Positions 3,501 through 60,689 of a DNA stretch of 64,000 nucleotides are shown here, one piece after another. The notes beneath the pieces are model-generated. The model was not told where the DNA came from. It saw nothing but the letters and a program-made list of their open reading frames with translations, and made no database searches. Numbering within the stretch: position 1 is the stretch's first letter; each line of letters starts with the position of its first letter. The position numbers were made by a program, and so were the translations under genes. This DNA comes from Octopus vulgaris (Eukaryota), in assembly GCA_951406725.2 (NCBI GenBank), contig OX597815.1:12834001-12898000 (forward strand), read 5' to 3'.

Positions 3501-5799
3501 CATCGTCGCGCACAAACCATGATTATTATAACCGGACATAAATGTCTGTTCCATAAAGCATAGTTTAAGAATTTTAATAATCATCTCTTCAACCATTCGC
3601 TCCTGGAGAACTCTAAATAGACGAGAAAGTCTTAGTTGAATGTATTTGATTGAAGTTTGCTTGAATCTACGTAGACAATAAAATGCTTGCACCGCTAGAG
3701 AATGAGTGATGCTTAATTTACTTGAACAATATACTAGAAATAGGAGCCGGGAAGTCATCAGATTATACGTTCCCACTTTACAAAAGGAAGCTCAATCTAA
3801 CCAAAAGGTCAATATGCTGATTGACGGTGTGAATACGTGCACATGTTTGTGCATAAGAGAAAGGAAGAAATGAAATGGGTGGAGAAGTGGAAAAAATTAA
3901 TGCATTATATTTAACCGATTAAACTTATAAAACAATTCATTTTCCTTCTATGTGAATTATGCATAGACATTAGAATTCAAAGTGTGTGCATCCAAATTGC
4001 CAAAAAGGATATGTATATATTAAAATAATTTTCGATATTAATGCAAATCCTTAAATGTTAATAATTACGATACCAAATGCATATAAAATCAAATATTGTT
4101 GCGATGGATATTATTTCGAATAGAAATAGCATGGCTATAAAGTATTTAAGCAACGGCATTCGAATACGAAACACTGAAATGAAGAGTGTATTAAATATAA
4201 CACAATATACACACGCTCACACAACTGCTAAAACAATTCAGCCAAGACTGAAGGTATATAACAAAGGGAAGTGAACAATCATCGTTCAATAAACATATAT
4301 TACAGATATTGTGTTAGTTGTACACGCATCAGAAAAATACATATTACTGACAATAATACTAAACGGCAAAACGCATCTAATGATTTACTGGTCAACAATC
4401 TTAATATGAATGATATTAGTCATTTTGAATAACAATTTGGGATACAAGGGGGCAACACATATCTTTGGAGATAAAAACTGGGGTTGAGAAATAAACAGAA
4501 ATATTGTGCATTAAAAAATAAAAATAAATAATACACTATGAAACATGAACCGAAAGATGCTATGCTCTTTAATTTTTATTATTCGCCAATAAAACAAATG
4601 CATATCAGTGTCTATTCGAAGACGCAAATTCCACGTTTGGATCCCACTTTTGAATCACTGCTATTTTCCAACCTTCCGGCCCTGAGAGAGTATGATACAA
4701 TTCGATGGAGCTGAATAATTATGAGAGCTCCGAGAATCTTATGACATGTGGTGCAAGTCTCCCTTTCTAACCAATCAAATGATGTGGTGTAAAAATAAAA
4801 CAACCAAACCACTATGAAGCAACGGACGACTAAGTTTGTAATCTTGACATGCACAAGATACTTTCTCAGGAAGTTATTAACCAGGTGTCGCTGGTCTCCC
4901 TGCTGGCATTAGAAAGGATGTAATAATATCCTTAACGCAATTACGTATCAATTAATAAAATAATTGTGATCTCGCAAAGGTCTTGCTTCATTTATTCTGC
5001 CGAATTTAGTGTGTAAATTAGCGAACAAACCAAATTTATACATCATTAAACCGCTATTAACCTAAAATCACTCAACGAAAAATTAACATGGTTAGAATGT
5101 TTAATGCGTTCTAAATATTTTTCTCTGGGTTCGATCGAGCAGCAGATCACAGAAAAATTGAAAGACATCTTTTGAATTGACTAGAAATTTATGTTCATGA
5201 AACGGCTGAAGGGGAATGAGGGCTTGCGTCTTTTGTAGTTTATCGTTATATATATAGATAGATAATTGAGTAGTTGAATGAATTATCTTAGTATGGATAA
5301 TTCGGTTAACCGATACCTGGGTAGCAAATTCATGTCAGAAAAACACGGTTGAAGCTACATGCCTAGGGCAGAGATCATGTGCTATCGTATGGAAATTTGT
5401 GTGTTTTTTTAAAAATACAAATAAATGAAAGAATGGTGTAGAAAATAAAGGAATTTTGTTAATTCGTCGTTCAACTCCATTCTTTCATTTATTTATATAT
5501 ATATATTAAAGTATGAATGAATGAGTTTGCCTGTTAAAAGTGTTTAATAAAATGTGCGTGTAAAATAAATGGTAGGTAGGCGTGATATTATAAGCGTACA
5601 TATCTACCACATAAGTAAGCTTTTTTAAATAATATATACAAATCGGCAACAGAACTCGAAAAATAAGCAAAATCCAATGCAACATGTACAATCTCACAAT
5701 ATTTTTCAATCAATAAATATAACAGAAGTTCAATAAATATACAACCCACGCATGCAAACAGCTATGCTTAGACGATGGTAAATGTTTAGCTGCATCTTA

Positions 5800-38960: not shown

Positions 38961-38989
38961 GGTCCTTCGCTGAGAAGACACCTCTCAAA

Positions 38990-39590
38990 GAACCAAAAAA
39001 TGGGACAGCAATCAATTCACACTAAGAAACTGTCCCATCCGTGACACAGATTTATACCAACAGGTAAATGTTGTGTATAGAACACAATGCAACAAATGCA
39101 ACGAGTTCTATGTGGGCAGCCCAACAAGACCGTTACATGTCCGCAACAAAGAACATCTGAACACGAGAGCCTTCTCCTTCAGAAAACATCTAGAAGCCGG
39201 AACACCGACAAAAGCATAACAGTTACAATTGAGGCTAATGAAATAAATTTGGATAAATTAATAATTAAGGAAGCTATTGTCATACACAGACTAGGGCCCC
39301 AAATTAGCCACGGGCTGGAGATTGGTAATCAATATATTATTTAGCTACATCTGGTTGCGTGTAGGTTCATTTTTGATAACTCTCTCAGATGCAGCACGAA
39401 CGTTTGTCAGCGAACAGGTCGCGGTCTCAAAGCGACGAAAATATTTTGACAACTTAAATTTGTTGAAGTGAACGGAACGGTTTTTGTGTATTTCTTAAAT
39501 GGCTTATAAACACATTCCACGCTGCAATTGTTTTCGTTCCAGCACACGGTCTCAGATCAGGTCACTTGCTCTGCAAGTACATCTCCGTAA
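38990..39590 (+). mobile_element. second Penelope-like element: GIY-YIG end plus pseudo-LTR containing a hammerhead
   Basis: NVVYRTQCNKCNEFYVGSPTRPLHVRNKEH and LIIKEAIVIHRLGPQI, followed about 60 bp after the stop by the hammerhead at 39404. Confidence 0.85.
39404..39452 (+). ncRNA. minimal type I hammerhead motif with swapped G3:C8 core (GCGAACA)
   Basis: TTGTCA-GCGAACA-g-GTCGC ggtctcaaa GCGAC-GAA-AATATT-T^TGACAA: perfect 6-bp stem I, 5-bp stem II, palindromic stem III. Manual folding. Confidence 0.65.
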
Positions 39591-40066
39591 TTCTCATATA
39601 TTATTTATAACAAAAAACAAACGGAAAAAAGGAGAAGGTAAAAAGAAGGGAAGCTGCATGTATTACACATAACTTAGAAGCAGCGCTAAGGATGTGCCAG
39701 CAGACGGGAGGTTGCGACATGGGCGACCTTACACACTTCTCTTGAGGAATTTCGGAACGAGCTTGGTGAAACCACTGCTGAGACGCTTCCGAAAAAACAA
39801 AAAAAAAATATTGGAAAACAGATTATAGCAGCGACACCATCCATCAATGCCTAGGGATACCTGAAGGAGGAATTTTATTCCAAAATATCATATCAGACTA
39901 TGGATGACTAAATTACGACAGTTCTTATTGTCCATTGTTTGTATAATAGTACATTGCTGTGTCATTCAAAATATTTTATTCTTTACAGACAATACACAAT
40001 GCTTCAAGCGAACTACAATACTCTCCTATATACATATGTCTGTGTGTATGTGTATGTATGTATGTA

Positions 40067-43560: not shown

Positions 43561-43764
43561 GGTTACAGGCAGTACGAGACAATTACAGGGCCTATTAAAT
43601 CTACGATTGATAGTAAAAGTAGATAAACTCTGAGTTAAACAATACAACTTCCTCTGAAGATGTTATTTCCAATATTATTTCCATCCCTAGTCTCTTTATC
43701 GATTTCCCTCTTTCTCTCTCTGTCTGTGTGTGTGTTTGCGTGCGCGTATATATGTATTTGTGTG

Positions 43765-44400
43765 TATTAAATATATTGGCCAAACCAGAATATCACTCTG
43801 TCGAAGAACCACTTTTCACAAAGAGCAAATCCGCCACCCACACTACAAAAAGATACAGATCACTGAACACATAGATAGGTGTGCTAGGAAACTTAATCCT
43901 AATTTCCTAATTTTTGCCTTCTATCAATGTTCATATAACGCTTCACTACAGCAAAGAATGAATAAAGAAGTAACTTTCATCAATAAATATCATCCACAAT
44001 TTAACATGAACACAACATTATACAGAACACTACTAACCTTTCCAAAAATGCCACTAACACACTTTCATTCCTTCTACTAATTATATTAGGGTATTATATC
44101 GACCCTAAGTGCACCACGTCCAGAAATACTTACCTCCGTTACAGAATACTTTTACTCAGTGACTAGTAGACGCGACAGCGTTTGCTAGTCGGTACACATT
44201 CAAAGCCAGTGAACAGCAATGAAGACACCGGTTTGACTTTGAATCTCTTTAACAATTCAAAATAATGAATTTAATTCCTCTTAGTTCTACCAAAGTTCAT
44301 CTAATTCTATTTATTTAGCGCTACTTTTCATAGAAAAATCCTTTATTTTTTAAGCTCAATGAACATTTTCGCTTTTTTCTTCTTACTTTACCCATACCAT
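43765..44400 (+). mobile_element. Penelope-like 3' fragment (GIY-YIG second half plus decayed pseudo-LTR)
   Basis: KYIGQTRISLCRRTTFHKEQIRH...EHIDRCA...RMNKEVTFINKYHPQFN in ORF 43730..44080. Confidence 0.8.
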
Positions 44401-60654: not shown

Positions 60655-60689
60655 GTTTCCGACGAAGAGCTCCGCTCGAAACGTTAAAC
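60655..60689 (+). ncRNA. minimal hammerhead motif (CCGACGA) in a ~200-bp element (60585-60787) embedded in (TA)n
   Basis: GTTT-CCGACGA-a-GAGC tcc GCTC-GAA-ACGT-T^AAAC. Confidence 0.72.

What the first reader, a model, noticed from the sequence alone, without database searches (positions are those of the whole stretch)
39404..39452. Hammerhead with a reciprocal G3:C8 swap in the catalytic core
Seen: perfect stem I (TTGTCA/TGACAA), stem II (GTCGC/GCGAC), GAAA and a palindromic stem III (AATATT) frame the core GCGAACA instead of CUGAUGA. Known: positions 3 and 8 form a Watson-Crick pair in the active hammerhead (Martick and Scott 2006), and the double swap restores activity in engineered ribozymes. 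Inference: a natural compensatory variant, plus U4C and a UUU cleavage triplet, that CUGANGA pattern searches would miss. It lies just 3' of a Penelope GIY-YIG coding end, where a pseudo-LTR hammerhead is expected.
Basis: partly seen in the sequence, partly recalled or inferred. Interest (0 to 1): 0.75.

Follow-up and report, generated by a model that had tools for sequence, protein, structure and literature searches.

The report
Swapped-core hammerhead in Penelope retroelement
This is a worn copy of the end-piece of a jumping gene with thousands of copies in an octopus-like genome; the family's "hammerhead" RNA motif has two paired core letters swapped (G-C for C-G), while sister families use C-G or U-A, so the motif likely still cuts itself slowly, though cutting is untested.

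Summary
The motif is as described and is not chance. G3:C8 is the family state: 5,534 exact genomic matches to stem I–core–stem II, against 324 with only C8 changed, 152 with only G3 changed, and 0 canonical C3:G8 among 17 double changes. The parent is a full-length Penelope-like element (Neptune/Nematis-type linker) with the motif in both pLTRs; its young subfamily is 97–99% identical. Two sister families carry U3:A8 and C3:G8 at the same place, and stem II covaries. Corrections: U4C is a minority change (family U4); U17 is ordinary for these hammerheads; an extra G precedes stem II; and the motif does not belong to the upstream GIY-YIG gene but sits in a ~210-bp insertion into an older element that has its own canonical hammerhead. 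Against efficient cutting: 0 of 80 copies start at the cut site, G3·G8 mismatch copies are in excess, and one sister family mostly carries A9C. My paper searches found G3:C8 only as a lab mutant; three key papers were unavailable. This scan noted the same swap before on other DNA of this genome. New variant; cleavage untested.

The parts
39404..39452 (+). Type I minimal hammerhead with G3:C8 core (this copy also U4C); predicted cut between 39446 and 39447
39410..39416 (+). Core GCGAACA; family majority GTGAACA (G3 = 39410, C8 = 39415)
39417..39417 (+). Extra G between A9 and G10.1, shared with sister families C and D; an unpaired base here is usual in PLE hammerheads
39381..39590 (+). Short insertion of family B: end of the pLTR of an autonomous Penelope-like element (AG at +1 = 39387, hammerhead, 5' UTR, first 31 codons, fixed 3' end CCGTAA)
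39499..39591 (+). First 31 codons of the parent ORF (the PLE 'tail'); the frame continues into the RT-endonuclease ORF in full-length copies
38974..39345 (+). Broken GIY-YIG coding end of the older host element (family A); unrelated to the G3:C8 motif
39856..39894 (+). Host element's own hammerhead, canonical C3:G8 type (CTGAAGA in relatives), decayed in this copy (A9 and G12 changed)

Best explanation
The motif is the pLTR hammerhead of an abundant Penelope-like retroelement family whose 3:8 core pair is fixed as G3:C8; it likely still forms the active site and is predicted to cut slowly after U17, likely as a dimer between the two pLTR copies of one transcript. Shown: homology, position in both pLTRs about 90 nt before the ORF start, family-wide G3:C8, covariation with sister families, and nested insertion of this window copy. 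Inferred: that a Watson-Crick 3:8 pair of any type is kept because it positions nucleotide 8 for catalysis; that AAUAUU from two copies forms the 6-bp stem III; that protein help may be needed, as for PAc. Cutting appears not to be required for making the short copies, which span the cut site. The window copy (U4C, shortened stem I) is probably weaker than the family form.
For: 5,534 exact G3:C8 matches, 0 in the reversed control; non-C8 324, non-G3 152, double changes 17 with no C3:G8. Full-length L128 has the motif in both pLTRs, 4.26 kb apart, and the young subfamily keeps it unchanged in nearly all copies shown. The swap is shared by two subfamilies 77-85% identical in RT protein and by contigs of four other organism labels (no variant at 5% or more at positions 3, 4 or 8). 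Sister family C has U3:A8 (2,142 matches; 92 of the first 100 U3:A8). Sister family D has C3:G8 (3,480 matches; 98 of the first 100 C3, 100 G8). B, C and D form one clade (FastTree support 0.996). In a 7-row alignment the 3:8 pair is Watson-Crick in 7 of 7 rows with three pair types, and two stem II pairs change on both sides (few, related rows). Lab data: C3G/G8C partly restores cleavage in a PLE hammerhead (PMC11167929) and is the only rescuing double in that motif in a full pairwise scan (PMC9901934). G3-C8 does worse with C17 than G17 (PMC3884650, data not shown there); this family has U17.
Against: No cleavage data. Of 80 copies chosen by their 3' tail, 34 start at 0 to +7 and none at 54-64 (cut product would start at +61), so templates were uncut. 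C8-to-G is in excess: 42 of the first 100 non-C8 copies (about 136) against 10 of the first 100 non-G3 copies with C3 (about 15), so predicted-dead G3·G8 cores are common. Family D, which has dozens of open ~1,312-aa frames, carries A9C in 96 of 100 listed copies, which suggests relaxed selection on catalysis in this clade. The hammerhead dimer (-28.8 kcal/mol) is not favoured over two monomers (-30.8) or the best dimer fold (-32.7), and G3 pairs with U17 in the minimum-energy fold (secondary structure only). Only three well-sampled families underlie the covariation.
Confidence: 0.62

Rival explanations
1. The motif is a hammerhead by descent, but catalysis is vestigial or dispensable here. 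The fold is kept for another job (binding the element's protein, or helping translation of the ORF 90 nt downstream), or the G3:C8 state drifted in through hitch-hiking in a successful source element.
For: Uncut templates; G3·G8 excess; A9C dominant in young family D; hammerhead mutants do not affect PAc insertion in vitro, and no RNA-seq reads end at its cut site (PMC11167929). Hammerheads in viral 5' UTRs promote translation (PMC13725137 passages), although there cleavage itself was needed.
Against: Three different Watson-Crick 3:8 pairs with U4, G5, A6, G12, A13, A14 and A15.1 kept; this pair forms in the active conformation (PMC3884650). Single, more diverged relatives (L371, L360, L364) keep G3 and C8 while N7, loop 2 and stems change.
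Confidence: 0.3
2. G3 was fixed by an overlapping DNA-level signal (the stem I/core junction reads TCAGT, an initiator-like word recalled from memory, 22 nt after the +1 AG), and C8 is incidental.
For: Short copies stop sharply at +1 to +7, and 15 of 24 non-intron-side starts have a G before AGATG, so transcription or splicing signals lie in this stretch.
Against: The 5' ends cluster at +1, not at the TCAGT (+21 to +25); the idea does not explain C8, nor U3:A8 in family C.
Confidence: 0.05
3. It is a copy-specific decay product or chance look-alike of the hammerhead expected behind the upstream GIY-YIG gene.
For: Position just 3' of a GIY-YIG end; no Rfam match.
Against: Thousands of identical G3:C8 copies; empty site in 24 of 24 host relatives, and the host has its own canonical hammerhead; 0 of 200 shuffles; Rfam also misses canonical controls.
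Confidence: 0.01

Closest known systems
Minimal/dimeric type I hammerheads of metazoan Penelope-like elements (Cervera & de la Peña 2014, PMC4209133; read: main text parts 1-2 of 4, supplement file 2 parts 1-2 of 3)
   Same: Position in both pLTRs; unpaired base before stem II; G10.1-C11.1; short palindromic stem III; U17 common; thousands of solo copies.
   Different: The cores of the Fig. S3 alignment (56 representatives by its legend) begin with C or U as read, none with G; the reported covariant is U3-A8. The extra base is usually not G there (consensus H).
Natural U3-A8 core covariants (Perreault 2011, PMC3088659 section 8; Schistosoma Cercyon, PMC4209133)
   Same: Compensatory change at the same tertiary pair; family C here is such a case.
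   Different: G3:C8 needs two transversions and puts a purine at 3 and a pyrimidine at 8.
Engineered C3G/G8C hammerheads (PAc, PMC11167929 passages and main text part 1 of 2; pairwise scan, PMC9901934 passages; Martick & Scott 2006 seen only as cited)
   Same: Identical swap; singles dead, double partly rescued.
   Different: Here it is natural, fixed in a multi-thousand-copy, recently mobile family, and combined with U17 and an extra G; activity unmeasured.
Neptune/Nematis-type EN+ PLEs (Craig et al. 2021, PMC8557442 passages)
   Same: RT followed by a CX3CX2C linker and C-terminal GIY-YIG; tandem pLTRs, inverted partial copies, tail, (TA)n targets.
   Different: Core variant; Neptune versus Nematis not resolved here.
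Non-LTR retrozymes (PMC7229834 search listing only; bioRxiv 10.64898/2026.07.22.740005 part 1 of 5)
   Same: Tandem arrays of the unit exist (29.7 x 166 bp).
   Different: The window copy is a dispersed solo pLTR end, not an array.

Membership tests
Type I hammerhead ribozyme | Stems I and II around the core in type I order | tested here: met
   stem II covaries across families
Type I hammerhead ribozyme | Literal CUGANGA core | tested here: not met
   family GUGAACA; window GCGAACA
Type I hammerhead ribozyme | Watson-Crick pair between positions 3 and 8 | tested here: met
   G3:C8 in sequence; G-C, C-G, U-A across sister families; 3D pairing itself inferred
Type I hammerhead ribozyme | U4, G5, A6, A9, G12, A13, A14, A15.1-U16.1, H17 | tested here: met
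   family columns 97-100% except G12 at 95%; the window copy fails at U4
Type I hammerhead ribozyme | Self-cleavage after H17 | not testable with these tools
   only contigs available; genomic 5' ends show no pile-up at the site
Type I hammerhead ribozyme | Match to an Rfam hammerhead model | tested here: inconclusive
   no match for window or intact copy, but none for two canonical controls either
PLE minimal hammerhead | Located in both pLTRs of an RT + GIY-YIG element | tested here: met
   L128 positions 1242 and 5503; pLTRs 98% identical
PLE minimal hammerhead | Palindromic short stem III allowing a dimer; unpaired base between 9 and 10.1 | tested here: met
   AATATT and extra G; dimer possible but not energetically favoured
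Penelope-like element, Neptune/Nematis type | Telomerase-like RT, Cys-rich linker, C-terminal GIY-YIG | tested here: met
   frames in L093 and L128; GIY-YIG Pfam E 0.002, below cut-off; no Pfam match for the RT frame itself; a 54%-identical protein is named RT-domain
Penelope-like element, Neptune/Nematis type | Clade placement against named reference elements | not tested
   no named reference PLE proteins in the tree
   0 of 24 relatives

The most novel reading that the evidence does not exclude
A naturally evolved, catalytically active G3:C8 hammerhead. One clade of octopus Penelope elements has sampled C-G, U-A and G-C at the active-site pair. It crossed the dead mismatch valley because, in the pLTR dimer, a copy with a broken core is still cut by its intact partner, and the G3·G8 copies seen in excess are traces of such tolerated states. 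A hidden class of hammerheads would then be missing from all CUGANGA-based censuses.
Probability: 0.35. Interest if true: 0.7.

Novelty: new variant of a known kind. Interest (0 to 1): 0.5.

Why it matters
The function of PLE hammerheads is open: they cut poorly in vitro and are dispensable for insertion in the one reconstituted system. Three sister families with three different Watson-Crick 3:8 pairs are the kind of evolutionary evidence that the active-site geometry is under selection, and they give a ready natural series to test. If G3:C8 is active, hammerhead descriptors should allow any Watson-Crick 3:8 pair; more than 5,500 motifs in this genome alone are invisible to CUGANGA searches. 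The chemistry is not surprising, since lab double mutants predicted it.

Tried and rejected
Rfam scans gave no hammerhead match for the region, the window motif, an intact copy or two canonical controls: uninformative. Sequencing runs: no RNA holder listed; only contigs were available, so no ends, strand or splice joints could be read. Looking for the parent among 20 regions picked mostly for long open frames after the tail found only microsatellite read-through; it was found through copies that keep upstream sequence. The idea that G3·G8 copies form one sub-lineage or an ancestral intermediate got no support: 11 changes for 11 tips on a low-resolution 119-copy tree (29 of 148 copies with other or unread states left out). 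A pattern for further G3:C8 families with other stem II ends gave 70 matches against 41 control matches; of the 30 fetched, 16 matched family B by BLAST and L371 weakly, and three (L350, L355, L365) were an unrelated repeat without stems. An IQ-TREE run timed out and was replaced by FastTree. Not held, so unread: Lünse 2017 (PMC5785218), Przybilski & Hammann 2007 (PMC1986816), Nelson & Uhlenbeck 2008 (PMC2151028); supplement file 1 of PMC4209133 was not searchable; bioRxiv supplements are closed.

Full report
Observation. The described motif is present at 39404-39452. Stem I (6 bp), core GCGAACA, one extra G, stem II (5 bp), GAA, the palindrome AATATT and U17 follow in type I hammerhead order. 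Stems I and II form in the predicted fold, which is not more stable than shuffles (z 0.10). A strict descriptor that accepts any Watson-Crick 3:8 pair finds only this site in the window and nothing in 200 shuffles. Rfam finds no hammerhead here or in an intact copy, but also none in two canonical motifs from the same genome.

The family. The window lies in a 2.8-Gb genome; the closest named protein to the parent ORF is labelled Octopus vulgaris. The stretch 39387-39590 is a repeat with thousands of candidates. Among the 29 best other copies the core is mostly GTGAACA; two share U4C and three have G8. Exact whole-genome counts for the 22-mer spanning stem I, core and stem II: G3:C8 5,534, reversed control 0; C8 alone changed 324; G3 alone changed 152; both changed 17 (20-mer), none C3:G8. 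In 80 loci chosen by the 3' tail alone, 43 of 56 cores are GTGAACA and 3 have U4C (two further regex matches were not cores and were dropped). Contigs from four other organism labels show no variant at 5% or more at positions 3, 4 or 8. G3:C8 is therefore the family state and U4C is decay or a minor variant.

Context corrected. The upstream GIY-YIG end belongs to an older element (family A). All 24 relatives fetched run on past the site without the unit; the window copy has about 210 bp inserted at 39381-39590 and resumes the host sequence afterwards. Family A has its own canonical hammerhead (CTGAAGA, extra A, GAAA TAT C), decayed in the window at 39856-39894.

The parent. Copies that keep upstream sequence led to RT and endonuclease frames and to full-length elements. 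L128 has pLTRs at 304-1421 and 4581-5682 (98% identical), the hammerhead in both, and a frameshifted ORF that starts about 90 nt after the core and runs through RT, a CX3CX2C linker and GIY-YIG. Its subfamily is young (97-99% identity over 3-4 kb) and keeps the motif with a different loop 2; the window's subfamily is older (77-85% RT identity to it). The 205-bp unit is the hammerhead plus the first 31 codons, the 'tail' that internal RT initiation produces in PAc (PMC11167929). Most copies end in (TA)n or AT-rich DNA and many carry inverted partial copies, as described for PLEs (PMC8557442 passages).

Sister families. A protein search found relatives at 57-62% RT identity. At the same place before the start codon, family C reads CTA TTGAAAA G GTTGC...GCAAC GAA AATT T TAG (U3:A8; 2,142 matches, 92 of the first 100 U3:A8 and 8 C3·A8). 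Family D reads GGACCA CTGATG(A/C) G GTCAC...GTGAC GAA AGAACT (C/T) TGGCC (C3:G8; 3,480 matches). B is sister to C+D (supports 0.996 and 0.986; FastTree on 61 rows, midpoint root). The three align without gaps from stem I to stem II; the 3:8 pair is Watson-Crick in 7 of 7 rows with three types, and two stem II pairs change on both sides. The rows are few and related, so the shuffle counts there are not probabilities. Single, more diverged relatives keep G3 and C8 with other N7, loops and stems (L371, L360, L364); one copy each, so tentative.

Mechanism. Established: positions 3 and 8 pair in the active fold (PMC3884650); C3G and G8C each abolish cleavage and the double partly restores it, also in a PLE hammerhead that needs protein to cut (PMC11167929); this swap is the only rescuing double in the CUGA region in a pairwise scan (PMC9901934); PLE minimal hammerheads cut weakly and as dimers (PMC4209133). 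Inferred: family B forms a dimer between the two pLTR copies through AAUAUU and cuts slowly after U17. U17 avoids a G3-C17 pair that would extend stem I, but U17 also occurs in C and young D, so it need not be an adaptation, and a G3·U17 wobble is still predicted.

Evidence against. Of 80 tail-selected copies, 34 start at 0 to +7, one extends upstream, and none starts at 54-64, where a cut product (+61) would begin: the short copies were made from uncut RNA, as in PAc. C8-to-G is about nine times more frequent than G3-to-C (about 136 against about 15, extrapolated from the first 100 listed), and these copies do not cluster. Family D, with dozens of open ~1,312-aa frames, has A9C in 96 of 100 listed copies while three show the canonical A9; an A9 change has been seen in a functional natural ribozyme (PMC10085705 passage), but it weakens the case for strict selection. 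The dimer is 2 kcal/mol less stable than two monomers. I put catalytic competence of the family form at about 0.6.

Novelty. Natural covariation reported so far is U3-A8 (PMC3088659 section 8; PMC4209133), and the representative PLE hammerheads in Fig. S3 show no G3. Searches for G3-C8, G3C8, C3G/G8C and GUGANCA returned only engineered mutants; the search for octopus with Penelope and hammerhead listed two papers, of which I read passages of one and searched its supplement without finding this element. Three relevant papers and some supplements could not be seen and may hold an earlier natural case. This scan has notes on the same swap elsewhere in this genome and in other genomes; I confirmed that one of them, the 166-bp satellite, is family B. 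These notes are not independent support.

Verdict. Real, family-wide and compensated across sister families; a new variant of a known kind with an untested but well-defined prediction. Interest 0.5.

Noticed in passing
L296, L297, L306 (G000:C15:42991500-43000500 and others); Very young sister PLE family D with dozens of open ~1,312-aa frames; its hammerhead has C3:G8 but A9 changed to C in 96 of 100 listed copies, while a minority keep A9.
   Followed up: partly
L288, L301, L317, L321, L323, L327-L332; Sister family C carries a U3:A8 hammerhead with a 3-bp stem I; 2,142 matches.
   Followed up: partly
L128:1200-1222 and window 39381-39390: The +1 AG is preceded by a branchpoint-like ACTAAC and a pyrimidine tract (YAG kept in both subfamilies), yet it is also where most short copies begin; 15 of 24 such starts have a G in front, as a copied cap would give. 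Splice acceptor, start site or both.
   Followed up: partly
genome-wide; Excess of G3·G8 mismatch copies (about 136), scattered over sub-lineages.
   Followed up: partly
L339:3094-8029 (G000:C2:17905000-17914999): 29.7 x 166-bp tandem array of the family-B unit with intact G3:C8 motif (retrozyme-like).
   Followed up: partly
L079:6972-9733 (G000:C27:32590000-32599999): 426-bp tandem array with seven full units; G3:C8 kept but stems I and II broken in the two units read.
   Followed up: partly
L093:5908-7195: A mariner-like transposase element inserted between the endonuclease end and the 3' pLTR of an old family-B copy.
   Followed up: no
window 60655-60689: Minimal hammerhead of another family (GTTT CCGACGA A GAGC TCC GCTC GAAA CG TT AAAC; relatives read CTGACGA), followed by (TA)n.
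   Followed up: no
L115 (minus strand) and L320: Another U3:A8-type motif (TTGACAA or TTGATAA, stem II GAGG/CCTC, palindrome CCGG) in an unrelated repeat.
   Followed up: no
L340:1570-1755: Old, diverged relative of the unit with stem I GTGTCA/TGACAC (compensatory to family B) and C8.
   Followed up: no
window 43691-44080: Another decayed GIY-YIG-like PLE end by eye (YIGQT...); no Pfam match.
   Followed up: no
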